A stretch of 64,000 bases of DNA. Source: a virus. Lineage: Duplodnaviria > Heunggongvirae > Uroviricota > Caudoviricetes. How positions within the stretch are numbered: the first letter of the stretch is position 1; each line of letters starts with the position of its first letter. The notes beneath the pieces are model-generated. The model searched no databases. It was given only the letters and a program-made list of their open reading frames with translations, and was not told the DNA's origin. The stretch lies in the IMG/VR virus record IMGVR_UViG_3300045988_157791; one strand, 5' to 3'. Both the position numbers and the translations under genes were made by a program. Shown piece by piece: positions 5,342 to 63,947 of this stretch.

Positions 5342-6598
5342 CTATCGAGAACCACCAAGAATAACACGGTTTTTGACTGGATACCTACGATGTACTGGAT
5401 AGCCCAATGCGTCTGCACTATGCTCAATGCCACCTGTCTTATCCATATCTCGTGTTCCAGGCTTGTAGATGACTTTTTCCAGTGAATCAATCAAATGCTT
5501 GCACTTCGGATCGATATACAGCCGGATATCTCCAGATGCGGACATCAGCATTCGGTTAACAGCATTAACACGATCCGCAATTGGCGGGTGCTTTTTCGAA
5601 TAATCGACACGTAAGAATCCCTTCTCTTTGAATATGTCTACGTCAGACTCCCCACGAGCATGTTGGCGATAAGCACCTGCCGGATCTGGAAATACCGTTA
5701 CCTGTGATTTCCAGCGCCAGAAGCGTCTCTCAAGCTCATCACAAACTTCTGCCGTGTTAGAGGAAAAGAGCACCAATTCATCAATTGCCCATAGCTCACC
5801 ATTTGGCTGAGGTTGCAAAATTACTGAAGACATCGGGTCAATGTTGAAGTCCTGCCCTACCCATATAGGCAACCGAGGGTTGAACTGAAGCGGTTTTACA
5901 TGCACGTTACGATCGAACGGGTAGTAAACGCGCCCGGACATGTTCTCAAAGCTGGCCAGGTACTCCTGAGCGAACGATTTGGGGTCCATATCGTTCTTAG
6001 CAGCTTCAATTTCCGCCGTAGGTACAAACGGAGAATCGGCAGTTACAAACTGCCAGCTCTTCCACTGTCCCTTTCTTTGCAGCTCTACGTTCTGGCCTAT
6101 AGTCCACAGTTTGTGAAATTCCGAGAAGCCTTTTGGCGTACCAATGATCAGTGCACCGCCGCGTGTCGATGAAAGAGTAGGTCGTAACACCTTGTACCAG
6201 GTGTCAGCCTTCATATCCTGAAATTCATCAAGCACTACAAAATGCAACGCTACGCCGCGCAGAGTGTCAGGCTTATCAGCACCTTTGAGGGCGATCTCCG
6301 AACCGTTCTTCAACACGATTGTCATCGTGGTGTCGTTCTTTTTCCTAACCCACTTACGAGGCAGAACTTCCTGTAGATCGTCCCACAAAATCTGGCGAGC
6401 CATCTGGTAAGTAGGAGCGACATACCAGACCCTTTGCTTTTTTTCCTTTGCCGCCGCACGAATAATAGTGGAGATCGACAACCGGGATTTTCCCCAGCGT
6501 CGACCAGCACAAACAACTTTAAATCGATGCGGAGACTGGAAGACTTTCATCTGTCCAGAATGCAGTTGCACAAGACTGAGCGAGGACGGGATTGCCAT
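5342..6598 (-). CDS. terminase large subunit
   Basis: Walker A-like VVCAGRRWGKSRLS near N-terminus, followed by nuclease-like C-terminal half; stop/start coupled with small subunit. Confidence 0.7.
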   Translation of the reverse strand: MAIPSSLSLVQLHSGQMKVFQSPHRFKVVCAGRRWGKSRLSISTIIRAAAKEKKQRVWYVAPTYQMARQILWDDLQEVLPRKWVRKKNDTTMTIVLKNGSEIALKGADKPDTLRGVALHFVVLDEFQDMKADTWYKVLRPTLSSTRGGALIIGTPKGFSEFHKLWTIGQNVELQRKGQWKSWQFVTADSPFVPTAEIEAAKNDMDPKSFAQEYLASFENMSGRVYYPFDRNVHVKPLQFNPRLPIWVGQDFNIDPMSSVILQPQPNGELWAIDELVLFSSNTAEVCDELERRFWRWKSQVTVFPDPAGAYRQHARGESDVDIFKEKGFLRVDYSKKHPPIADRVNAVNRMLMSASGDIRLYIDPKCKHLIDSLEKVIYKPGTRDMDKTGGIEHSADALGYPVHRRYPVKNRVILGGSR

Positions 6599-7230
6599 TA
6601 TTCGTCCTCCCCTTCACTTCCAACATCTGTCGCATCAAATTCGCTTAGAGCTTCTTCTTCCAACGTCTCAAGCAATTCGTCATCGATGATTTCAGGCTCG
6701 TCGTCTTCCTGACGTAATTTCGCCACCTGGGAAGGCGTAAGCTCACCAAATACCAGGTTCGGAATTTCTTCCTCGTCATTTTCCGCATGATCCATGCCCA
6801 ATGCTTTGGACGAAACTTCAAAGCATTTTGCAAGGGTATTACTGGCTCTCTGTAAGCTCTTGAGAGAATCCTCAATCGCCCCTAAAGGCTTACCCTCACG
6901 TTTGGCCGTAGTGACTTCGACCATCACCATCTGCCCCAACGCATACGCCCAGCCGTCATAACGTGTACGACGTTCTTCTATCTTTTCCGCACGGGCTTTA
7001 GCGCGAAGCTCTGCGTCAGATTTAAGAGACTCACGAACCATCTTCCCAACAGAGTCCGCGCCTTTCTCTAATCCTCGCTTTTTGAAATGTCTGGAGAGTG
7101 TTTCACGACGAATGCCGTACTCTTCCTCCAGCTTTGAGAGTGTATATTCGCCTGACGTCCATTTGGCTTCAGCTTCGGCCCACTCCGCTGGTGTCAGGCG
7201 AGTTTTTACCTCGTCTTTTTCGACCGTCAT
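6598..7230 (-). CDS. putative terminase small subunit
   Basis: 210 aa, N-terminal HTH-like segment, acidic C-terminus, directly upstream of and overlapping large terminase. Confidence 0.45.
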   Translation of the reverse strand: MTVEKDEVKTRLTPAEWAEAEAKWTSGEYTLSKLEEEYGIRRETLSRHFKKRGLEKGADSVGKMVRESLKSDAELRAKARAEKIEERRTRYDGWAYALGQMVMVEVTTAKREGKPLGAIEDSLKSLQRASNTLAKCFEVSSKALGMDHAENDEEEIPNLVFGELTPSQVAKLRQEDDEPEIIDDELLETLEEEALSEFDATDVGSEGEDE

Positions 7231-7701: not shown

Positions 7702-8592
7702 TTATGCCGGTAAAGCAATTTCTAACGGTTTATCCAAAGGTTGTTTGTCGAATGCCAGCAGTGGCAGCGTGTCAGGCAGTCGACGGCCAAAGTCAGGGTT
7801 TCGGTACACACCATACAACGGAGACGTAAAGCTCAGGTTGTGAATGTCCTTGAGCAGCTTCACAATGCTGGCCTCGTCCACCAGACTGTCGGCAATGTCC
7901 TGAATCGTCGTGCCACGATTCCGCCCAGCTTTTGCCAGGGAACTGTTCTTGTGGTAGTCCGCCACCAGATCACGCAGTGCACGGCGACGACGAGACTCGC
8001 TCATAGCGAACAACTCTTTGACGATCGCCTCGTTATCACCCGGGTCGGAGCGGAAATGGCGCTGGAACACACGCAGTGCACTTTCATAGCTCTTCGGTCG
8101 CTCAGGGCGGATGAACTTAAACCCTGCTTTCATGGCGAAGGGATTGTATTTGCTCATCGATGACTGGATCTCAATGATTGGCCGGTCATGCATCCTGCTA
8201 ACCAGGTTAATCATTCGATAAGAGACGCCTACGCCACGATACTGAGTATCCACAACTGAGCGACTGATCACCGCAAAGTTGTTATTCACGTACCGACCCC
8301 AGTACTGGTTAGCCACGGTGGTATTAGTGGTTGGTTTCAACTTAGGAAACATGCGGTGGCGAGGTGCCAGCAGTAGTTTCGGATAAGCCATAACCACGAC
8401 GCCCACCAGACGGTCATCAAGTTCGCAGCGATAGTAAGTTGGCGCGAAAGGTTTGCCGTCTGTTTTGTAGTGAAGCGACTTAAGAGCGTGCCAGTCCTCT
8501 ACAGTTCCCTTTGTGACTGTCATTCGTTCCAGAAAGTCCAGATGACGCGGAAACTCTTCAGGGCGGTAGCGTTTAATGATGATGTCCGTCAT
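7702..8592 (-). CDS. hypothetical protein with GNAT-like motif
   Basis: 296 aa; AVISRSVVDTQYRGVGVSYRMINLV resembles GNAT motif A (R-x-x-G-x-G); weak. Confidence 0.3.
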   Translation of the reverse strand: MTDIIIKRYRPEEFPRHLDFLERMTVTKGTVEDWHALKSLHYKTDGKPFAPTYYRCELDDRLVGVVVMAYPKLLLAPRHRMFPKLKPTTNTTVANQYWGRYVNNNFAVISRSVVDTQYRGVGVSYRMINLVSRMHDRPIIEIQSSMSKYNPFAMKAGFKFIRPERPKSYESALRVFQRHFRSDPGDNEAIVKELFAMSESRRRRALRDLVADYHKNSSLAKAGRNRGTTIQDIADSLVDEASIVKLLKDIHNLSFTSPLYGVYRNPDFGRRLPDTLPLLAFDKQPLDKPLEIALPA

Positions 8593-9254
8593 GAATGGAC
8601 CTCATCATGACTACCATTGTGATATTCCACCTTCACGCGTTCTTTGTAGTGCTTGGTGATCTGCATATCCGGGCGCAGCGCGTTCTTCAGGTCTTCGTGA
8701 GTCGTCGCCACCATTACCGTCGCACCAACCTTTCGAGCGGCACGCTGGAGGTTAGATGCCACAACCTGAGCGGTTACACGGTCTAAAACAGCACCGAACT
8801 CGTCAGCAGCCCACACTTTAGCGCCTGACTCAATCAGTTTGGCAATCTTGAGACGATATTTCTGACCGTCTGACATTTCAGAAGGCTTGCGAACAAACAG
8901 ATATGCATCGTTCAGACCAGCCATAGATAACAATCCAAGCGCATCACTGGTCGTTTTGCCCAACTGATCGATGACGTTAACCTCATTATCGAAGGTAAAA
9001 TCATCGATGGAGGCTACAGACAGCCCTTCATCCTTCATCTGTCGTTGCAACTCGCGCAGCACAACGGATTTGCCGGAACCGGATTGGCCGGTGATGTACA
9101 CCACATCGCCCTGCTTCACTTCCAGCTCCAGATTGTCGTAAAGCGTCCACTCTTTTTCGTCCAGACCAAGCCCGAACGACTCAGCGATTTCCAACGTGCG
9201 CGTGGTTTTATTTACGCGTGTCTGAAACGATACGTTGATGATGTATTTGCTCAT
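8589..9254 (-). CDS. ABC-type ATPase
   Basis: Walker A GQSGSGKS, signature-like MSDGQKYRL, Walker B VWAADEF, H-loop ATTHED; 4-nt overlaps with neighbours. Confidence 0.65.
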   Translation of the reverse strand: MSKYIINVSFQTRVNKTTRTLEIAESFGLGLDEKEWTLYDNLELEVKQGDVVYITGQSGSGKSVVLRELQRQMKDEGLSVASIDDFTFDNEVNVIDQLGKTTSDALGLLSMAGLNDAYLFVRKPSEMSDGQKYRLKIAKLIESGAKVWAADEFGAVLDRVTAQVVASNLQRAARKVGATVMVATTHEDLKNALRPDMQITKHYKERVKVEYHNGSHDEVHS

Positions 9255-9952
9255 GCAGCCATCTCCCCGGAAGAGATCTTCTCCGCATATGCCACAAATG
9301 CGTCTACCCCGCTTTCTCCCGTCATTTCTTCCATGTGGGCAAGCAAATCACCAACAACAATGGCAGAGCCAGCAGGAAGCGTTTTAAAGCCCAATACGTC
9401 GACAACACGTACTTCTTCCGCTGCAACTTCACGACTGATCTCGGTGTGTTCATCCTTCTGTCGTTTAGTTTCTTCGCCAAGATCGATAACTAGCGAGTCG
9501 GTGTCCATTTCTTCTGTCATACTGCCAACGAGAACATTCAACTCACGCTCTTCAAAGCCGAAAACCTCGATATCGTCCAGAACAAGCGACTCAAGCTCTT
9601 TCTGTAGCTTAATTGCATCGTAATCAATGCTGGCAAGTCGGTTATCTTCAAGGCGCTTCGCACGAACCTCGTCATCACTGAGATCATCGCGAACAATAAC
9701 CGGTACGCGCTCAAGTCCAGCAAAAATTGCAGCCTCACGGCGGCCATGACCAGTAATAATTACGTCGTTCTTATCGACCGTAATTGGCTGGTCAAATCCG
9801 CGCTTTTTAATGGCTGCGGCCAGATCTCTGATCTGCTGTTCATCATGCTTTTTGGCATTCATCTCATAGGGAATAAGATCTGCCGGGTCGCGATATACGA
9901 TTTCAAACTTTTTGGTCATTACATACGCTCCTTGTAGTAGTCGACCAGCCAC
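9251..9952 (-). CDS. ParB N-terminal (ParB/Srx) domain protein
   Basis: ITGHGRREAA motif characteristic of ParB-N nuclease/NTPase-like domain. Confidence 0.55.
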   Translation of the reverse strand: MAGRLLQGAYVMTKKFEIVYRDPADLIPYEMNAKKHDEQQIRDLAAAIKKRGFDQPITVDKNDVIITGHGRREAAIFAGLERVPVIVRDDLSDDEVRAKRLEDNRLASIDYDAIKLQKELESLVLDDIEVFGFEERELNVLVGSMTEEMDTDSLVIDLGEETKRQKDEHTEISREVAAEEVRVVDVLGFKTLPAGSAIVVGDLLAHMEEMTGESGVDAFVAYAEKISSGEMAA

Positions 9953-10617
9953 ACCAGAGCCTCACCAGCGTTCTCCATTTCATTACCGGTGTTAATAGCC
10001 TGCTCTTTGATGATGTTTTTTATGGTTTCTGCAACACGATCTGACGCATCGAAAGTTACTTTGAAGCGCATGGTCTGATGTTCCGCACCCACACGTTCGG
10101 TTTTCTCTCGTTTGTCGGTATCGACAGGCTCATCACTACCACGAGACAACGCCTCCAGTGCTTCAAGGTCGATTGCCGCCTCTTTTGCTAAAACCATCGA
10201 GATTTCGTCGTCATACGGGGCGATTTCAGACAGTTGATAGTCAAGTTCTGACTGAATTTCTTCAATGAAGCGTTGCAATGCGATTTGGTCGTCTTCACCG
10301 TATCGCTCGTTGTCCACCAGTGACATCTGTTTAGCTACGACATCGCTAATTTTGCCCACAGAAAGCACCGGAACCGTTGAAATTCCTTGCTCAATAGCGG
10401 CACGCCAGCGATGTTCGCCGCCGAGGATTTCAAAAAATCCATCTTCAAGTTCACGAGCCAAAATTGGCTTAAAAAAGCCCAATTTTTCGATAGAACCTTT
10501 CAGTTTTTCAAAATTCTGCGCACCAACCGAATTGGTGTTCCAGGTATTCGGGCGAAGGTTGGCAACATCAACCTGCAAAATCGTGATTTTTACATCCATT
10601 TTATTGCTACAATCCAC
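9919..10617 (-). CDS. ParB N-terminal (ParB/Srx) domain protein, second paralogous domain
   Basis: ILGGEHRWRAA motif; overlaps start of previous gene. Confidence 0.55.
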   Translation of the reverse strand: MDCSNKMDVKITILQVDVANLRPNTWNTNSVGAQNFEKLKGSIEKLGFFKPILARELEDGFFEILGGEHRWRAAIEQGISTVPVLSVGKISDVVAKQMSLVDNERYGEDDQIALQRFIEEIQSELDYQLSEIAPYDDEISMVLAKEAAIDLEALEALSRGSDEPVDTDKREKTERVGAEHQTMRFKVTFDASDRVAETIKNIIKEQAINTGNEMENAGEALVWLVDYYKERM

Positions 10618-14442: not shown

Positions 14443-14964
14443 ATGGTTAAAGACATCACCTACGGCATACCGGCTGAAGTCTGGCCGCGAGACTACGAAC
14501 ATGCTGAAAACATACTTATGTTCTGGCGGAAGAACAACATTCCTGTAAGAGTCACGCTTGAAGACGGTCAGGTGTTTTGCATGTACGTTCAGGGGACAAT
14601 GCCTTCCCGCAATAAGCTAGATTTATGCCCGCTTCCATATGATAAAGAAAATCGTATAAGACTCCCACTTGAGCGCATTAGCACAATTGAATCAGGTGTA
14701 ATCGATGGCATTGCTCGCGAGTTCAAAGGTAGGCTAACAATACATCCAGACTATGTTGACAATCAGCCATCACGCCGTGACTTTTTTGCGATATGTCGCA
14801 AGGCTTATCAAAACGACCAATCTATAAGGGTCTACATGGCAGACGGTCGTGAAATAGAAGGGGTGTCAAGAGGCGTTGATGCTTGTCAGGTCACTCTTAA
14901 GTTAGAAGACGGCAGAAAAATACTTGTTTTCTTCGATTGGGTTGAACGAATCCTTCCATTTTAA
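14443..14964 (+). CDS. hypothetical protein with internal duplicated small beta-rich motif
   Basis: 173 aa; IPVRVTLEDGQVF and VTLKLEDGRKILVF repeated segments (Rof/Sm-like pattern, weak); TATAAT at ~14409 upstream. Confidence 0.4.
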   Translation: MVKDITYGIPAEVWPRDYEHAENILMFWRKNNIPVRVTLEDGQVFCMYVQGTMPSRNKLDLCPLPYDKENRIRLPLERISTIESGVIDGIAREFKGRLTIHPDYVDNQPSRRDFFAICRKAYQNDQSIRVYMADGREIEGVSRGVDACQVTLKLEDGRKILVFFDWVERILPF

Positions 14965-15183: not shown

Positions 15184-15258
15184 TGAACTCGTCGAAAGCG
15201 AGCTGGCTAACGACAGCAAAAAATAAATTCATTTTAATTTTTCGTAAGGATGTCCATC

Positions 15259-15909
15259 ATGGCTAACATTATCATTTCTAAAAAATCCATCGTTGAAGCT
15301 GCTTCCATTGTATCCGATGAACTGCGCGAAAAAGCAGATCTGGCAACTCAAACATATAACGAACATTATAAAAATGGTACGCACACTAAAGCAGACAAAG
15401 CAAATATGCAAGCTGCGACCACTAAACTTGCTTACTTCATCAACAACGTTGTAAACGCTGTAGAAGAAGAAAAATTATGCTCTGTTTTCTACTATGCGAT
15501 CAAAGCAAGTAAACAAGCGCCAGAAGCATTTTTCCGTGATGCAATGGCTAACAGTTATTCTCTGGAAAAACTGGTTTATCTGGTCAAATCAATTAAATCT
15601 GGTAAATGCGTTTATTCCGTCGCTGATATGTCAGGATCTCGTGTATTCGCTTTAATCGATATGATTAACGACGAGATCGACACGTTCACCAATGGCGCTG
15701 TTTTCGATTTAATGAATGAAGCAAAAAAAGCGTGCGAAATTAAATTGGACGCTGGCTATACTCAAGCCAACCAGTTGATCAATCTTTGCGAACGTCTCGG
15801 ACTTGTTGAAAAAGTCAAAGGAGCTGGGAGCGCGAAAGCTGGTACTCAGCAATATCGCTTCATTAAAAATGATTTCTATAACTATCTGGCTGATGCTTTT
15901 AAAGCGTAA
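15259..15909 (+). CDS. hypothetical protein (self-contained moron-like unit)
   Basis: ORF track 15250..15909; ATG 15259 has AAGGA at proper spacing; flanked by promoter and terminator. Confidence 0.45.
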   Translation: MANIIISKKSIVEAASIVSDELREKADLATQTYNEHYKNGTHTKADKANMQAATTKLAYFINNVVNAVEEEKLCSVFYYAIKASKQAPEAFFRDAMANSYSLEKLVYLVKSIKSGKCVYSVADMSGSRVFALIDMINDEIDTFTNGAVFDLMNEAKKACEIKLDAGYTQANQLINLCERLGLVEKVKGAGSAKAGTQQYRFIKNDFYNYLADAFKA

Positions 15910-15957: not shown

Positions 15958-16188
15958 ATGTATGTTCTTATCGCTGGCGTTAACGTGCGCAATGAATATT
16001 TTGTTAATCGCATCGCTGGGATCGCTGGCTACGCTGGGCGCTCAGTCGAGTTTATCGATGAAACAACGCGTAAAATTGACTTATTGAACGACCAGGAGCG
16101 AAAAAAAGCTGAGGTGAACGACGCTGATATATTTTTAATGTTAAAAGCGTTTGTAGAAATGGGATTTGAAATCAGTTTACATAAATAA
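15958..16188 (+). CDS. small hypothetical protein
   Basis: 76 aa; AAGGAG RBS; flanked by two copies of the same terminator hairpin. Confidence 0.4.
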   Translation: MYVLIAGVNVRNEYFVNRIAGIAGYAGRSVEFIDETTRKIDLLNDQERKKAEVNDADIFLMLKAFVEMGFEISLHK

Positions 16189-16193
16189 AATCG

Positions 16194-16217
16194 AGCGCCC
16201 ACTATGGGCGCTTTTTT
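16194..16217 (+). terminator. intrinsic terminator (same hairpin as 15922)
   Basis: GCGCCCACTATGGGCGC + TTTTTT. Confidence 0.55.
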
Positions 16218-16240
16218 CGTTTCCAATACTTCCACAATAA

Positions 16241-16264
16241 CGCGCCATTGATGGCGCGTTTTTT
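16241..16264 (+). terminator. intrinsic terminator
   Basis: CGCGCCATTGATGGCGCG + TTTTTT. Confidence 0.5.
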
Positions 16265-16683
16265 ATTGTCTTTGACTCACTCCAACAACATAAAAATAAG
16301 CGCCAAAATAACGCCATAAACGCGCTTTTATATCCTTGCCAGTACATACCCATTACTTAACACATTAACGCGCTTAAAATGCGTTATATTGCGCTATAAC
16401 GTATGGCTAATCATTGGCTTTTAGTCTTGCTATGTGATCCGCGTTTATTTGTCGGCGCGGATCGGCATTTTGTGTTGTTTTGTATCCGCTCGCATATGAT
16501 TGCCACGTTGGGCAACGTGTACGCGCTTACAGTGATTTACCCACGGATTCACATAATCACATAGCGAAAGCTATCTGGATGGCCCAGGGGCTGAAACCCC
16601 CACCAGCGATACCCCAGCGCCGCTACGCAATTTCTGGCGCGATTCCGGGTTTCTCCCGCTCAGTTTTCTACATAAAGGCGAAT

Positions 16684-16805
16684 GCAGCCGTTTCCCGAAA
16701 AAATCCTGGCCGTTTCCCGTCGGCTCATGAATGCGTTCCTCGCCGTTTCTGAAAATTTCCCTGCGGCAGCTGGTGGCTATAGAGAAAGGGCCGTTTCTGG
16801 CCCTC
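16684..16805. repeat. direct-repeat array A of (G)CCGTTTC(C/T) motifs
   Basis: Four copies: CAGCCGTTTCCCGAAA, GGCCGTTTCCCGTCGG, CGCCGTTTCTGAAAA, GGGCCGTTTCTGG within ~120 bp of non-coding DNA. Confidence 0.5.
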
Positions 16806-16812
16806 TTCTCAG

Positions 16813-17295
16813 TTACACGCCATCAAGGATGTGGATGCGGTTGCTTGCGTATACATTCAGCATAAAGTTAGCGCAAAACAGTTTCCATGTGTCAACGCCA
16901 GCGGTATACGTAATGTTTTTGCATTTAATTGCATTGTTGGCGATCCGCATCCCCTGCGATACTGCTTCATCGTCGGAAAATTTGAACGACGATTGAGTTT
17001 TAATCCAGACAGAAATCTGCGTAGCGAACTCAATCAGCTTGGACTGGCAGAATCGCCCGGAGCGCACCGGAAAGACGAACGTTCCGAATCCAGAATTTAC
17101 CACATATGCTTTCTCAAATACCCGCGAGTAACGACGATTGCCAATGATGTTGCGTACAATAATGCATTTTTCTTGTTCTGACAGTTCTACCGTCTCATTG
17201 TGACGCCAGGCACCAAGTACTCGTTTTTCAATGTCAGAGAACGTTACAGCGATATTGCCATGTGCGGGTGCGTTTACAGTAGCGATAAAATTCAT
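16813..17295 (-). CDS. hypothetical protein
   Basis: 160 aa; preceded by conserved promoter/5'UTR block (GATAAT ... GAAAACAATTTGTT ... AAGGAA). Confidence 0.4.
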   Translation of the reverse strand: MNFIATVNAPAHGNIAVTFSDIEKRVLGAWRHNETVELSEQEKCIIVRNIIGNRRYSRVFEKAYVVNSGFGTFVFPVRSGRFCQSKLIEFATQISVWIKTQSSFKFSDDEAVSQGMRIANNAIKCKNITYTAGVDTWKLFCANFMLNVYASNRIHILDGV

Positions 17296-20287: not shown

Positions 20288-20425
20288 CGCCGTTCCTGAA
20301 CCGGCATCGAGCCTTTTCCCGAAATCCACACAGGCAACTCGACCGTTTCCCTGAAAACCTCCAGCCGTTCCCCGAAGGCAACCCAGCCGTTTCTGTAGCG
20401 GGATGCAGCCTTTTCCCTGTATGGA
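20288..20425. repeat. direct-repeat array B of (A)GCCGTTTCC motifs
   Basis: Six copies at ~22-30 bp spacing: CGCCGTTCCTGAA, AGCCTTTTCCCGAAA, GACCGTTTCCCTGAAAA, CAGCCGTTCCCCGAAGG, CAGCCGTTTCTGTAGCG, CAGCCTTTTCCCTGTATGG. Confidence 0.5.
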
Positions 20426-20579
20426 CCGAAGGCTGACCGTAGGGGTGTTACGGGGGATAAAATCAGGAGTTGAATAAATACGAAAAAGGAGGCGACACCC
20501 CTCCTTCCCTCCCAACTTATACATACCTGTCTTGTTCGCTATACATGTTGTGTTTTCTTCGTGTTTTATCTGTTTCAAC

Positions 20580-21400
20580 CTCTCTATAGGCGTTAATGCT
20601 CACTCCTTCCAGAACGTTCTATACGGCGACTATTTCTGTTGGTGAATTGGGTGTGTTGTTTTCCCTGTCGGTGTATGTGGTTTCGTTCGTTTTGCGATGG
20701 TTCTTCTATGGGGTGTTCTCGTCGTTTTGGTGATTGTTCTTCTCCGTGTATGGAGTAATGGCAGGTGGGCGATTCCTTTCGTTATTGTGTTTGAGTTGTT
20801 TGTCTGGAGTGCGTGAAGGGCTTTTGTAGTTATTCGTGTATTGGGTAATGGCGTTTCCCGTGATTGTTATGTTTCGTGTCTTTTGGGATTGAGAGAAACC
20901 TTGCGGTTACAGGCTTCGTTGGGGTTTCAGTGATTCTGATGTTTCTTCGCTGTTTGGGTAATGGCGTGTCGTGGGTATCGCGCGTATGAATGTTTTCGGA
21001 TTGCCTGTGAAAGTTAGGTTGGTTGTCCGGTAGCCTGGGAAGAAGAGGTGGGTCTTTTCGGTAGCCTGCCATAAAGAGGTTGGTTGTTTTTGGTAATGGC
21101 ATATGTGTTATTTAGTTGTTTTGTTATACCTGAAAATAAGTTGTTTATATGGTTATGTAACGCAACGGGAGCGATTTTGAGCGTGTGTTTTTGTTGGTAG
21201 TGTGTTGGGTCGTCTGTGGTGAAAATTGGACGCTGTGGCGCTGTCTGCTGCGTAGAGTTACGGGTATAAGAAGTGATGTGTGAAAACGTCAATTTTTTAG
21301 ACCAAATCGGGTGAAAGCGTTGACGTTTCGTTGATCTGTTATTTAGTTGTTTTCTTATTTGTATAAACAACCATAACCTATTGATATTTAATGATGTGAT
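20580..21400. repeat. GT-skewed non-coding tract with degenerate ~100 bp tandem units
   Basis: Plus strand almost devoid of C-runs; recurring ...GTGTATTGGGTAATGGCG... at ~20751, 20841, 20953, 21090; GTTATTTAGTTGTTTT repeated at 21108 and 21337. Confidence 0.5.
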
Positions 21401-53073: not shown

Positions 53074-53160
53074 AATCGTTTTTTCAGTAGTTATTGGCCG
53101 ATGCTACGATAACTCATTAGGCATACCTTAATCTGCATTTGCCTGTTTTACTTATCCCAG

Positions 53161-53810
53161 TTATCCACTGGATAGATCCAAATAAGAGATCCCAAGTAAG
53201 ATCAAATAGAAGATCCAAAGAGATCCCCGATCGCCTCTAGCCGTTGCGGTTACTGGTCTGAAAGGGTGTTGCCATCCACTATGGAGAGCAAAGAAACCTC
53301 TGTAGAGAGCTGAATAACCGCTATGAAGAGTAAAACAACCACTCTGGAGAGCTGTATATATCCACTGTAGAGAGTAGAGCACATTGTCTTTTATGGATAA
53401 CTTAATGACTTAATTCTTCATTAACATACTGATATACATAGATATATTTTAAACTCTACTCTTAGTCATGATTCTTATGTCCTTAAATATCCACAGAAGA
53501 GTAGAGTTACCTGTTCTTGAAATCCTCTGATTTTTATCCACAGGCCCGATCCAGTAATTCAGATCACAAAGAGAACCAAAGAGACCCATAAAGACCCAAT
53601 AAGATCCCCGCCCACCTCAAACCGTTGTGCCATCTGCCTTCAGACATGATCGATATCCACTATAGAGAGCGAATAATCCACTATAGGGAGCAAAGCAACC
53701 ACTATAGAGAGGAGAAAAACCACTATAGACGGTAGGATAACCGCTGTGATGAGTGCTACTATCCACTGTAATCAGCAAAGGCCACCAAAGCCGTCGAATA
53801 ACAAGAGACA
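53161..53810 (+). promoter_or_regulatory. plasmid-type replication origin: two GATC clusters, DnaA-box-like sites, two sets of 21-bp-phased iterons
   Basis: Six GATC in 53176-53232 and more at 53548-53651; TTATCCACA at 53534; iterons (A/T)NCCACT(A/G)T(A/G)GAGAG at 53275,53296,53317,53338,53360 and 53655,53676,53698,53719,53740,53761. Confidence 0.7.
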
Positions 53811-53816
53811 TTTGGA

Positions 53817-54872
53817 ATGAGCGAAAACGGCAATAAAAACATAGCGATCGTTGAAGCATTTTCAGAAACAGATAAAAAGACAGGCGAAGTTGTTACGTTG
53901 GTTCCTAACACTAATAACACTGTTCAGCCTGTTGCTTTGATGCGTCTGGGCCTCTTCGTTCCGACGCTGAAATCGACATCCAGAGGAAGAAAGGGGCAAA
54001 TGGTCTCTATGGATGCCTCTGCTGAACTCAAACAGCTGTCTCTGGCAAAAGCCGAAGGGTACGAAGACATAAGGATCTCTGGCCTTCGGCTTGATATGGA
54101 TAACGACTTTAAAACGTGGGTGGGAATAATCCACGCGTTTGCCAAACACAAGGTCGTTGGCGATACTGTCACGTTGCCGTTCGTTGAGTTTGTAAGGCTG
54201 TGTGGCATTCCGACCGCCAGGTCATCAGCGAAGTTACGCAAACGCCTGGACAGTTCGCTAAGCCGTATTGCCACAAATACCATCTCGTTCCGTAGCAAAG
54301 GCTCTGATGAGTTTTACGTAACGCATCTTGTGCAAACGGCAAAATATAGTGTCAAGCACGATACGGTCGAACTGAAAGCAGATCCCAAGATTTTCGAACT
54401 CTACCAGTTCGACAAAAAGGTTCTTCTGCAACTCCGGGCTATAAACGAACTCTCAAGAAAAGAATCCGCTCAGGCGCTTTATACTTTTATTGAAAGTTTG
54501 CCGCCTGATCCGGCACCAATATCACTAGCCCGTTTACGCGCCAGACTTAATCTGACAAGTCGCACTATTACTCAGAATGCGACGGTAAGAAAGGCTATGG
54601 AACAGCTGCGAGAGATAGGATATCTCGATTACACGGAAGTTAAGCGCGGAAACTCGGTCTACTTCGTCATCCACTATAGGCGGCCAAAGTTACGCCAGGC
54701 ACAAATATCAACAAAAATCGATAATGATGAGACGGAATATAGCCTCCCAGATGAGAATCAAGATGACATTATCGACGTTGTGCCTGACGAAAAAGAAGGC
54801 AAAATGGTCATGTTGAGTAAAGAAGAACTGGCGCTTCTCGAAGAGTTGCGCAAGGCAAAGACTCGCAAATAG
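53817..54872 (+). CDS. repA: iteron-binding replication initiator RepA (P1/RepFIB family)
   Basis: [54 protein letters not shown] closely parallel P1-type RepA as recalled; flanked by iterons. Confidence 0.7.
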
Positions 54873-54873
54873 C

Positions 54874-55360
54874 CCAACCACTGTAGTTAGTAGTAAGGCT
54901 CACTATCCACTGTAGTGAGCCTTACTTATATCTGTAATTCGCTATCCACTATAGTGAGTATCGTTATCTGTTGATAACCACTGTAGGCAGTAGAATGCAA
55001 ATACTGAATTAAATGTTAGTGATCACTAACACTGATGAAACAAGGGCTGCGAGGTTAGTGGTCACTGGGTATCTTGGAAAATTTACTGTCTATAGTGGTT
55101 GTTGTCGCCCTCATCTTTGAGCGTATCCACTGTGGCGAGTGGATATCCACTGAAAACAGCAAAGGCTTACTCACCATAGTGGATACCCGCTGGACATCTC
55201 ACTCCAATACTCACCATAGTGGTTGTTTGATGCGAATGAAAGGCTGTCTACTCGCTACAGTGGTTAGCAGATATGTAGGAAGGTTTTGTTACTGACTACA
55301 GTGGATAATGAGCTGGATACGAATGCGGTGAGTAGTCTGCTCACCGCAGTGGTTGGTGCT
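54874..55360. repeat. downstream iteron array (incA-like), both orientations
   Basis: About 12 copies of CCACTGTAG / CCACTATAG or inverse CTATAGTGG / CTACAGTGG. Confidence 0.65.
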
Positions 55361-63127: not shown

Positions 63128-63456
63128 TGATGCCCGCCAATTGGCGGGCATCTGTTCTCTGTAAAGGTGTCTGGCATCGTCTGGTTCGTTAACGTTTACT
63201 AAACCAATGGTGACAAAAATTAGTTATCTTTGAAAAATAAAGGTTGCATGAAAAGAAGGGGTATGCGTTAATAGCATCGTTGGTTTGCAAGACAGACCTT
63301 ATGTAAGCAGTTTTAGTAAAGCAGTCTCAGTTCAGTGTTATCTTCTGATTTCCCTTCTTCGTGAGTCTCCTCCTTAAGTGCCTAAGTAAGTCCCAATCTA
63401 TACAGATCAAATTCTCGCCGCACTATGTGGCTCACAAAATTAAGAAGGTAATATCT

Positions 63457-63672
63457 ATGTCTAATAAAATGACTGGTTTAGTAAAATGGTTTAACTCTGA
63501 TAAAGGCTTTGGCTTTATTTCTCCTGCTGATGGCAGTAAAGATGTTTTTGTACATTTTTCGGCAATTCAGAGTAATAATTTCCGCACTTTGGAAGAAGGC
63601 CAGCAGGTCGAATTCTCTATCGAGAATGGGGCTAAAGGCCCAGCAGCAGCAAATGTCGTTGCTCTAAGCTGA
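63457..63672 (+). CDS. CspA-family cold-shock protein
   Basis: [38 protein letters not shown] (RNP1/RNP2); ORF-track start 63361 rejected in favour of ATG 63457 with AAGAAGG RBS. Confidence 0.85.
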
Positions 63673-63947
63673 TTCAACGCTGATGATCCTCATTTCTACA
63701 ATAACGAAGACGGTGTAAGCCTGAGTGGATAGATTTGCAGGATTGTACAAGTTGAATAAATTAGCATGGTAAGGCCATGCTAATTAAATCGACACAACGG
63801 CCAGTTTATTCCATAAAAGTGAATTGCCCATTGTGGCGAAATGCGGGGTTGCCGCATGAATAGTCAAAGGCAGAAGCTAACTGCCGGCATGGCAAAACAA
63901 AGTGCGTAAGAGGAGTGACTTCCTCAACAAGCGCCATAATTCTTTAT

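What the first reader, a model, noticed from the sequence alone, without database searches (positions are those of the whole stretch)
16200..16810. Non-coding region with CCGTTTCC direct-repeat array and AACGCG-rich tract (array A)
A ~600 bp ORF-poor stretch contains four (G)CCGTTTC(C/T)(C)GAA repeats at 16684-16805, preceded by an AT-rich tract with repeated TAACGCG/AACGCC words and two intrinsic terminators. The same repeat family recurs 3.5 kb away in array B. Possible roles are iterons of a second origin, regulator binding sites, or repeats within a structured RNA.
Basis: seen in the sequence. Interest (0 to 1): 0.5.

Follow-up and report, generated by a model that had tools for sequence, protein, structure and literature searches.

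The report
Conserved phased DNA-repeat arrays, phage-plasmid
A gene-free 620-bp stretch of an SSU5/pMT1/pHCM2-type phage-plasmid holds evenly spaced copies of GCCGTTTCC that are kept in every relative examined and look like docking sites for a DNA-binding protein, possibly a second, phage-mode replication origin, although neither the protein nor the function has been shown.

Summary
The window is an SSU5/pMT1/pHCM2/pLF82-type phage-plasmid. Region A is a 613-650-bp non-coding gap between two convergent genes, and no relative has it annotated. Three GCCGTTTCC copies, spaced 22 and 33-34 bp on one strand, occur in 85 of 93 related loci at a fixed distance from the neighbouring stop codon. They are as conserved as codon positions 1+2. 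The fourth copy lies in a terminator hairpin. A homologous array B (six copies, mostly 22 bp apart) lies 3.6 kb away, and a complete 108-kb relative has no other cluster. Terminators shield both arrays from transcription.

They are not RepA iterons, because the plasmid origin at 53-55 kb uses a different repeat. I found no support for a structured RNA or a coding gene. The same core at 22-bp multiples forms the origin iterons inside O-like initiator genes of lambdoid phages. This element encodes no detectable O-like protein, and only copy A2 matches the full O-type iteron.

Best reading: phased protein-binding (iteron-type) sites, most likely a RepA-independent phage-mode origin or its control locus. 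The binding protein is unidentified; the adjacent 219-aa winged-helix protein is a candidate. This function is inferred, not shown.

The parts
16193..16213 (+). Terminator T1 of the 76-aa gene. The hairpin AGCGCCCACTATGGGCGCT plus a T-run also scores as a terminator on the minus strand.
   Evidence: Nearly invariant in 79 distinct relatives and still present in the most divergent ones.
16239..16260 (.). Second hairpin/palindrome AACGCGCCATTGATGGCGCGTT plus a T-run. It is either a tandem terminator or a possible protein site.
   Evidence: T1 and T2 together are 83% identical in the most diverged class, against 46% at third codon positions.
16230..16430 (.). AT-rich tract (37-39% GC) with (A/T)AACGC(G/C) words. 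It also holds the invariant blocks AAAAATAAGCGCCA and GTACATACCCATTAC.
   Evidence: Overall sequence is poorly conserved (52%).
16435..16464 (.). Inverted repeat of 11 pairs (G-T allowed) with an 8-nt loop that holds the region's two GATC sites. Relatives have up to 6-7 GATC here.
   Evidence: GATC enrichment is not consistent across relatives.
16478..16660 (.). Allelic middle segment. The window's type is carried by 28 of 79 distinct relatives; other lineages have unrelated sequence.
16664..16682 (+). Conserved box TTTTCTACATAAAGGCGAA just upstream of copy A1. It has a counterpart, CACACAGGCAAC, before B3.
16687..16708 (+). Repeat A1, GCCGTTTCCCGAAAAAATCCTG.
   Evidence: It is the best-kept copy in the most divergent relatives.
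16709..16730 (+). Repeat A2, GCCGTTTCCCGTCGGC. It is the only copy with dyad arms (GCCG...CGGC) like the O-type iteron.
   Evidence: score 14.4 with the O-like matrix.
16742..16776 (+). Repeat A3, GCCGTTTCTGAAAA, plus the conserved block TTCCCTGCGGCAGCTGGTGG.
16788..16803 (-). Intrinsic terminator of the 160-aa gene (GGGCC-GTTTCT-GGCCC). It contains the out-of-phase fourth copy.
   Evidence: Relatives show a compensating stem change, GGGGC/GCCCC.
20289..20430 (+). Array B, six copies (20289, 20311, 20342, 20364, 20386, 20408) spaced 22, 31, 22, 22, 22.
   Evidence: Present in 81 of 94 sequences checked (93 loci plus the window).
20483..20509 (-). Minus-strand terminator that shields array B from transcription coming from the right.
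   Evidence: Conserved.
15250..15909 (+). 219-aa protein with a helical N-terminal part and a C-terminal winged helix. It is the candidate binder, but no link to the repeats has been shown.

Best explanation
Array A, together with its homologue array B, is a cis-acting DNA element made of helically phased, same-strand protein-binding repeats of the iteron type. The repeats sit in a non-coding zone that terminators shield from transcription. Most likely they mark a RepA-independent replication origin, or its control locus, used in the phage (lytic) mode of this SSU5/pMT1/pHCM2-type phage-plasmid. In that model, several copies of an element-encoded DNA-binding protein load side by side on one face of the helix, and opening or helicase loading happens nearby. 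The adjacent 219-aa winged-helix protein is the only candidate binder found.

Shown: the repeats, their phasing, their conservation, their non-coding and non-RNA character, and their difference from the RepA iterons.

Inferred: protein binding, the identity of the protein, and the replication role.
For: 1. Three copies spaced 22 and 33-34 bp occur in 85 of 93 loci, at a fixed distance from the stop codon of the 160-aa gene. Array B keeps 22-bp spacing across lineages.
2. In the most diverged class the array is 76% identical. Third codon positions of the neighbouring gene are 46% identical and positions 1+2 are 79%.
3. The repeats persist in relatives whose 219-aa homologue is only 52-53% identical.
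4. In a complete 108-kb relative the motif clusters only at A and B.
5. Terminators bracket both arrays.
6. Region A is conserved across plasmids typed to different replicons (IncFIB or rep_cluster_488) and with different partition genes, so it belongs to the conserved phage core.
7. RepA's own origin lies elsewhere and uses a different iteron, ATCCACTATAGAGAG.
8. In 23 loci of lambdoid-type phage contigs, including Klebsiella phage ST405-OXA48phi1.2, GCCGTTTCC at 22-bp multiples forms the origin iterons inside O-like initiator genes.
10. In Citrobacter both A1 and A2 changed to GCCTTTCCCC. That fits sites tracking a protein, not base pairing.
Against: No initiator was identified. tblastn and a profile of 21 O-like proteins find nothing in the window or in the whole Cyrano genome (best E = 0.46 and 1.9). 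The 219-aa family shows no homology to the O-like DNA-binding domain (hhalign probability 0.7%).

Only A2 matches the full O-type iteron. The flanks of the other copies score at random, and A2's own score (14.4) lies within the range reached in shuffled sequence (mean maximum 10.9, highest 18.9). The search pattern was built from the window's own repeats, so finding origins with this core shows analogy, not identity.

There is no DnaA box or IHF consensus in A (one DnaA-box-like 1-mismatch match lies near array B at 20517). GATC enrichment is inconsistent. The AT-rich tract lies about 260 bp from the repeats and is poorly conserved. GC skew gives no origin signal.

There are no experimental data on replication in this family in the papers I searched.
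Confidence: 0.4

Rival explanations
1. The repeats are regulatory or architectural binding sites, not an origin. An element-encoded protein, such as the 219-aa winged-helix protein, coats A and B. The two arrays bracket the 3.5-kb cluster of small repressor-controlled early genes, and binding would silence, insulate or loop that cluster.
For: A and B flank a run of five or six single-gene units, each with its own promoter/leader and the AAACAANTTGTTT palindrome. The arrays have the same orientation and are homologous modules. A winged-helix gene lies next door. Typical origin features are missing.
Against: Array A lies at the 3' end of convergent genes, with no promoter nearby. Y. pestis pMT1 has lost B but keeps A intact. 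No link between the protein and the site has been shown.
Confidence: 0.25
2. The repeats are the packaging recognition site (pac). The small terminase subunit would bind the phased repeats to start headful packaging.
For: Small terminases commonly recognise arrays of phased direct repeats (general knowledge). From memory, untested here, the lambda cosB R sites bound by gpNu1 share the core CGTTTCC. The zone is free of transcription.
Against: The array lies about 9.4 kb from terS (window 6598-7230), whereas pac sites usually lie in or beside terS. TerL is of the T4-like Terminase_6 type, not lambda gpA. A second array 3.6 kb away is not expected for a pac site. No virion-end data are available.
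Confidence: 0.1
3. The repeats act as RNA. They would be a structured non-coding RNA, or repeated protein-binding motifs in a transcript, for example a target of the neighbouring FljA-family post-transcriptional repressor.
For: A FljA-family protein (PF03614) is encoded 1.7 kb upstream, and FljA is reported to act post-transcriptionally, blocking translation of fliC mRNA (PMC2652032). Short hairpins can be drawn around A2 and A3, and one possible compensating change is seen: GGCCG/CGGCAG against GCCCG/CGGGAG.
Against: There is no Rfam family. Folding z-scores are -0.02, -0.26, -0.24 and -0.95. RNAalifold gives no consensus structure, and only 2-3 pairs show double changes. Terminators block read-through from both sides and no promoter is predicted inside. 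The Y. pestis sRNA catalogue lists no RNA here. Spacing in multiples of 11 bp has no meaning for RNA.
Confidence: 0.08
4. The repeats are orphan O-type iterons that act on other phages. The multicopy phage-plasmid would carry binding sites for the O-like initiators of co-resident or invading lambdoid phages, either to titrate them (exclusion) or to be co-replicated when they are induced.
For: The core GCCGTTTCC and the 22-bp phasing are the same as in origins of O-like initiators of Klebsiella and other lambdoid-type phages, one of them from a host genus shared with this family (Klebsiella). The element encodes no O-like protein. A2 is a near-complete O-type site.
Against: Nine of ten copies lack the right arm ATTCGGC of the O-type iteron, and their flanks score at random. 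The O-like origins were found with a pattern taken from this window, so the match was partly imposed. No co-occurrence data exist.
Confidence: 0.07

Closest known systems
Lambda-type replication origins lying inside O-like initiator genes (PHROG 9773/345/391), for example Klebsiella phage ST405-OXA48phi1.2 (MK416007)
   Same: Direct repeats with the core GCCGTTTCC, all on one strand, at 22-bp multiples, with 4-8 copies. An AT-rich region lies on the same side of the array relative to repeat polarity. Copy A2 reproduces the dyad GCCG...CGGC.
   Different: Here the arrays are intergenic, not inside a gene. No O-like protein is encoded. The right arm ATTCGGC is missing in most copies. There is no DnaA box and no GATCTGT repeats. 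The AT-rich tract is about 260 bp away rather than adjacent. There are two arrays.
Satellite phage P4 ori and crr (recalled from the literature, not tested here)
   Same: Two clusters of the same short direct repeat, a few kb apart on one replicon and in non-coding DNA. In P4 both are needed in cis for replication.
   Different: The P4 repeat is TGTTCACC and is bound by the alpha primase-helicase. No such fused protein is known here; helicase and primase are separate genes in Cyrano.
Iteron origins of Rep_3 plasmids, including this element's own RepA oriR
   Same: Phased repeats about 21-22 bp apart in arrays, with extra arrays used for copy control (P1 incA, F incC).
   Different: The RepA iterons here are ATCCACTATAGAGAG. 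They flank repA at 53-55 kb and come with DnaA boxes and a GATC cluster. Arrays A and B share none of these features.
Lambda cosB R sites bound by gpNu1 (from memory)
   Same: The core CGTTTCC in repeated sites bound by a winged-helix protein.
   Different: The terminase here is of the T4-like type. The site is 9.4 kb from terS. All copies are direct, whereas lambda has one inverted R site.

Membership tests
Lambda-type origin (iterons of an O-like initiator) | Array of at least 3-4 repeats with about 22-bp phasing and a shared core | tested here: met
   Array A is spaced 22 and 33-34 bp, array B 22, 31, 22, 22, 22. The O-like origins are spaced 22, 25, 44 and 45 bp with the core GCCGTTTCC.
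Lambda-type origin (iterons of an O-like initiator) | The element encodes the matching O-like initiator, and the iterons lie inside its gene | tested here: not met
   tblastn best E = 0.46, and that hit covers only the repeat-encoded peptide. The profile search gives a best E of 1.9 over six-frame ORFs of the window and the whole Cyrano genome. The arrays are intergenic.
Lambda-type origin (iterons of an O-like initiator) | Full dyad iteron GCCGTTTCCATTCGGC | tested here: not met
   Only A2 scores well (14.4). Flank-only scores put A2 at the 98th percentile (A4, the terminator copy, also 98th) and the other eight copies at the 12th-79th.
Lambda-type origin (iterons of an O-like initiator) | AT-rich unwinding region beside the iterons, with a DnaA box or GATC repeats | tested here: inconclusive
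   An AT-rich tract exists, but it lies about 260 bp away and is poorly conserved. There is no DnaA box within one mismatch. GATC counts are inconsistent.
RepA (Rep_3) iteron origin or copy-control array | Repeats match the iterons that flank repA | tested here: not met
   The RepA iterons are ATCCACTATAGAGAG at 21-bp spacing, at 53273-53740 and 54875-55354. RepA contains Rep3_N and Rep3_C domains.
P4-type ori/crr pair | Two clusters of one repeat, kb apart, both required in cis and bound by the replicative primase-helicase | not testable with these tools
   The two-cluster layout is met. Binding and cis requirement need experiments.
Described structured RNA family (Rfam) | Covariance-model match or a conserved, stable secondary structure | tested here: not met
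   only terminator-like hits far below threshold; z-scores of -0.95 or weaker.
Protein-coding gene | Conserved reading frame | tested here: not met
   Of 147 indel events in 16660-16812, 126 are not multiples of 3. The longest open frame changes strand and frame between relatives. PGAP annotates nothing here.
cos/pac terminase recognition site | Lies in or beside the small-terminase gene, and virion ends map there | tested here: not met
   terS is at window 6598-7230, 9.4 kb away, and TerL is Terminase_6-type. Virion ends were not testable.

The most novel reading that the evidence does not exclude
The phage-plasmid keeps two orphan arrays of lambdoid O-type origin iterons but no O gene. The arrays would capture the initiators of co-resident or invading lambdoid phages, either blocking a competitor's replication by titration or amplifying the phage-plasmid when the neighbour is induced. 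That would be an origin-mimic decoy conserved from Yersinia pMT1 to Salmonella pHCM2.
Probability: 0.07. Interest if true: 0.8.

Novelty: new variant of a known kind. Interest (0 to 1): 0.45.

Why it matters
SSU5-type phage-plasmids include Y. pestis pMT1, S. Typhi pHCM2, E. coli pLF82/Cyrano and many Klebsiella plasmids. All the records inspected here leave this region unannotated. Only the RepA plasmid origin is recognised, and how these elements replicate in the lytic mode is unknown.

A family-wide, strongly conserved pair of iteron-type arrays gives a concrete candidate for the phage-mode origin or its control. It also gives a defined target for ChIP, deletion and marker-frequency experiments. 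If the arrays instead bind initiators of other phages, they would be a new form of inter-phage interference. If they are merely regulatory sites, the finding is a useful annotation but ordinary.

Tried and rejected
- **Structured RNA.** Rfam at gathering and permissive thresholds, single-sequence folds on both strands and RNAalifold on 13-22 non-redundant relatives gave nothing beyond the terminators.
- **Published sRNAs.** The Y. pestis RNA-seq catalogue lists sR082 and sR083 on pMT1, but both map elsewhere.
- **RepA iterons or a copy-control array.** Rejected, because the repeat sequence is different.
- **Coding gene.** Rejected on frame-breaking indels.
- **O-like initiator in the element.** tblastn, a profile HMM and hhalign against the 219-aa family were all negative.
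- **GATC clustering, DnaA boxes, IHF sites and GC skew as origin marks.** All were uninformative or absent.
- **The array outside this family.** BLAST of the array against 50,697 phage records finds only SSU5-type phages.
- **Literature.** I found nothing on this region.
- **Lambda cosB similarity.** This rests on memory only, and the terminase type does not support it.

Full report
**What the window is.** Region 15900-17300 matches Escherichia phage Cyrano (pLF82), Salmonella phage SSU5 and about 700 plasmids from Escherichia, Klebsiella, Enterobacter, Citrobacter, Salmonella (pHCM2) and Yersinia pestis (pMT1). The window is therefore an SSU5-type phage-plasmid. Region A is the gap between a 76-aa gene (15958-16188, +) and a 160-aa gene (16813-17295, -), which converge on it. 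The gap measures 613-650 bp in every full-length locus with both genes (51 of 94; two cut or partial hits give 697-699). None of the annotated relatives I inspected has a feature there.

**Checking the observation.** The four GCCGTTTC(C/T) copies start at 16687, 16709, 16742 and 16790. Array B has six copies at 20289-20408. All lie on the + strand. The degenerate motif is found 12 times against 3.85 expected, and none of 100 shuffles reaches 12. The two + strand terminators and the AT-rich tract with AACGC(G/C) words are also real. A local alignment shows that A1-A2 and B3-B4, each with a short upstream box, are homologous modules. In the complete 108-kb Cyrano genome the motif clusters only at these two places.

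**Comparative evidence.** I collected 93 related loci from genomes and viral contigs plus annotated records.
- Three copies spaced 22 and 33-34 bp are present in 85 of 93 loci. They sit at about -125, -103 and -70 from the stop codon of the 160-aa gene.
- The fourth copy is different. It forms the 3' end of the 5' stem arm (GCC) and the loop (GTTTCT) of the minus-strand terminator of the 160-aa gene, it is out of phase, and in most relatives it reads GGGGCGTTTCC...GCCCC with a compensating stem change.
- Array B is present in 81 of 94 sequences checked (93 loci plus the window). Its spacing is 22, 31, 22, 22, 22 in 37 loci and 22, 22 in 19 loci. It is missing from Y. pestis pMT1, where an IS element has replaced the region.
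- In the most diverged class (n = 28), third codon positions of the 160-aa gene are 46% identical to the window and positions 1+2 are 79%. The array is 76% identical, the two left terminators 83% and the AT-rich tract only 52%.
- Even in relatives whose 219-aa protein is 52-53% identical, CCGTTTCCCGAAAAAA and further copies remain.
- Indels are mostly 1-2 nt, and no reading frame is kept.

So the repeats are non-coding and under purifying selection about as strong as at non-synonymous sites.

**DNA or RNA.** No Rfam family matches at gathering or permissive thresholds. Minimum-free-energy z-scores for both strands of the middle segment and of the array are -0.02, -0.26, -0.24 and -0.95. RNAalifold finds only the terminators and a few short hairpins with almost no double changes. 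Transcription from the left is stopped by two near-invariant terminators, and transcription from the right by the terminator of the 160-aa gene. No promoter is predicted inside the region. Array B sits in the same way, between a minus-strand terminator (20483-20509) and a promoter that fires away from it. A Y. pestis sRNA catalogue lists nothing here.

Four features point to protein-binding DNA sites rather than RNA: spacing in multiples of 11 bp, a single orientation, insulation from transcription, and the joint change of A1 and A2 to GCCTTTCCCC in Citrobacter.

**Not the plasmid origin.** RepA (Rep3_N and Rep3_C domains) is encoded at 53817-54872. It is flanked by ATCCACTATAGAGAG iterons at 21-bp spacing, four DnaA boxes and the densest GATC cluster in the window. 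Arrays A and B share none of these features. They are also conserved across relatives typed to different replicons and carrying different partition genes. I therefore assign them to the conserved phage core.

**Closest known system.** I scanned viral contigs for two CCGTTTCC copies 22 bp apart. The scan returned SSU5-type contigs and also 23 loci in which the match lies inside an array of 3-8 copies within a gene. PHROGs calls that gene 'replication initiation O-like'. Its C-terminal domain is homologous to the O proteins of Stx and other lambdoid phages. In Klebsiella phage ST405-OXA48phi1.2 the gene sits just after cII, separated from it by one small gene. These origins read: DnaA box, then three GATCTGT repeats, then iterons with the consensus GCCGTTTCCATTCGGC. 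So the core and the phasing of the window's repeats are those of a real iteron class.

The resemblance has limits:
- No O-like protein is detectable in the window or in the whole Cyrano genome.
- Only A2 matches the full dyad. The flanks of the other copies score at random against the O-like matrix, and A2's own score (14.4) is within the range reached in shuffled sequence.
- There are no DnaA boxes.
- The search pattern came from this window, so this is analogy rather than membership.

**Candidate binders.**
- A 173-aa FljA-family protein (PF03614) is also next door. It is kept in elements from Klebsiella and Y. pestis.

**Conclusion.** The most likely reading is a set of phased protein-binding repeats of the iteron type. 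I rate 'DNA sites bound by a protein' as probable, at roughly three in four. I rate the more specific claim, a RepA-independent phage-mode origin or its control locus, at about 0.4. The rivals are regulatory or architectural sites bracketing the early-gene cluster (0.25), a packaging site (0.1), an RNA element (0.08) and decoy sites for lambdoid O proteins (0.07). None of these can be settled without experiments; the decisive ones are listed separately. I found no description of the element for this family in the literature. I class it as a new variant of a known kind.

Noticed in passing
window 7271, 7296, 17316, 17801, 18551, 19454, 19938, 21134, 22747, 22798, 29666, 34207, 34936, 45167, 56898: The 13-bp palindrome AAACAANTTGTTT occurs at about 15 sites. 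Counting both strands there are 30 matches against 2.8 expected, and 0 of 100 shuffles reach that number. The sites lie at the 5' ends of many transcription units, including terS and each small gene between arrays A and B. It is probably a dispersed operator of the phage repressor, as with C1 in P1, and it forms part of a 55-nt repeated promoter/leader (D1).
   Followed up: partly
window 20520-21400: About 0.9 kb is strongly G+T-rich on the + strand (GC skew up to +0.58, AT skew down to -0.85) and contains internal repeats of about 30 nt. It falls in a 1.5-kb stretch that PGAP leaves without genes in relatives. Its nature is unknown.
   Followed up: no
window 14443-14964 (+): A 173-aa protein of the FljA family (PF03614, E = 5e-81), with a weak Hfq-like C-terminal hit. 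It is conserved beside region A in elements from Klebsiella and Y. pestis. Those hosts are, from general knowledge, non-flagellate, so its target may be phage-internal.
   Followed up: partly
window 53150-55360: The plasmid replicon. RepA (Rep_3) at 53817-54872 is flanked by ATCCACTATAGAGAG iterons at 21-bp spacing on both sides. The downstream set is partly inverted. There are also four DnaA boxes and the densest GATC cluster in the window.
   Followed up: yes
window 16478-16660: The middle of region A is allelic. Only 28 of 79 distinct relatives carry the window's version, which is 77-100% identical across distant hosts. Close E. coli relatives with 98% identical flanking genes carry unrelated sequence there. 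This suggests cassette-like replacement.
   Followed up: partly
window 63279-63697 (+): A full-length match to the cspA thermoregulator (RF01766, 185.7 bits). A cold-shock gene leader is therefore present at the end of the window, in a part that Cyrano does not share.
   Followed up: no
L128 880-1010, L114 4230-4420, L209 4850-5000, L217 2920-3064: Lambdoid phages carry origins inside O-like initiator genes. The layout is a DnaA box, then three GATCTGT repeats, then 4-8 GCCGTTTCCATTCGGC iterons. The iterons encode a repeated PNGNG..AES peptide linker.
   Followed up: yes
window 8589-10617 (-): An operon with two ParB_N-domain proteins and ABC-type ATPases lies between terS and the UvsW-like helicase gene. 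It is conserved across the family, and its function is unknown.
   Followed up: no
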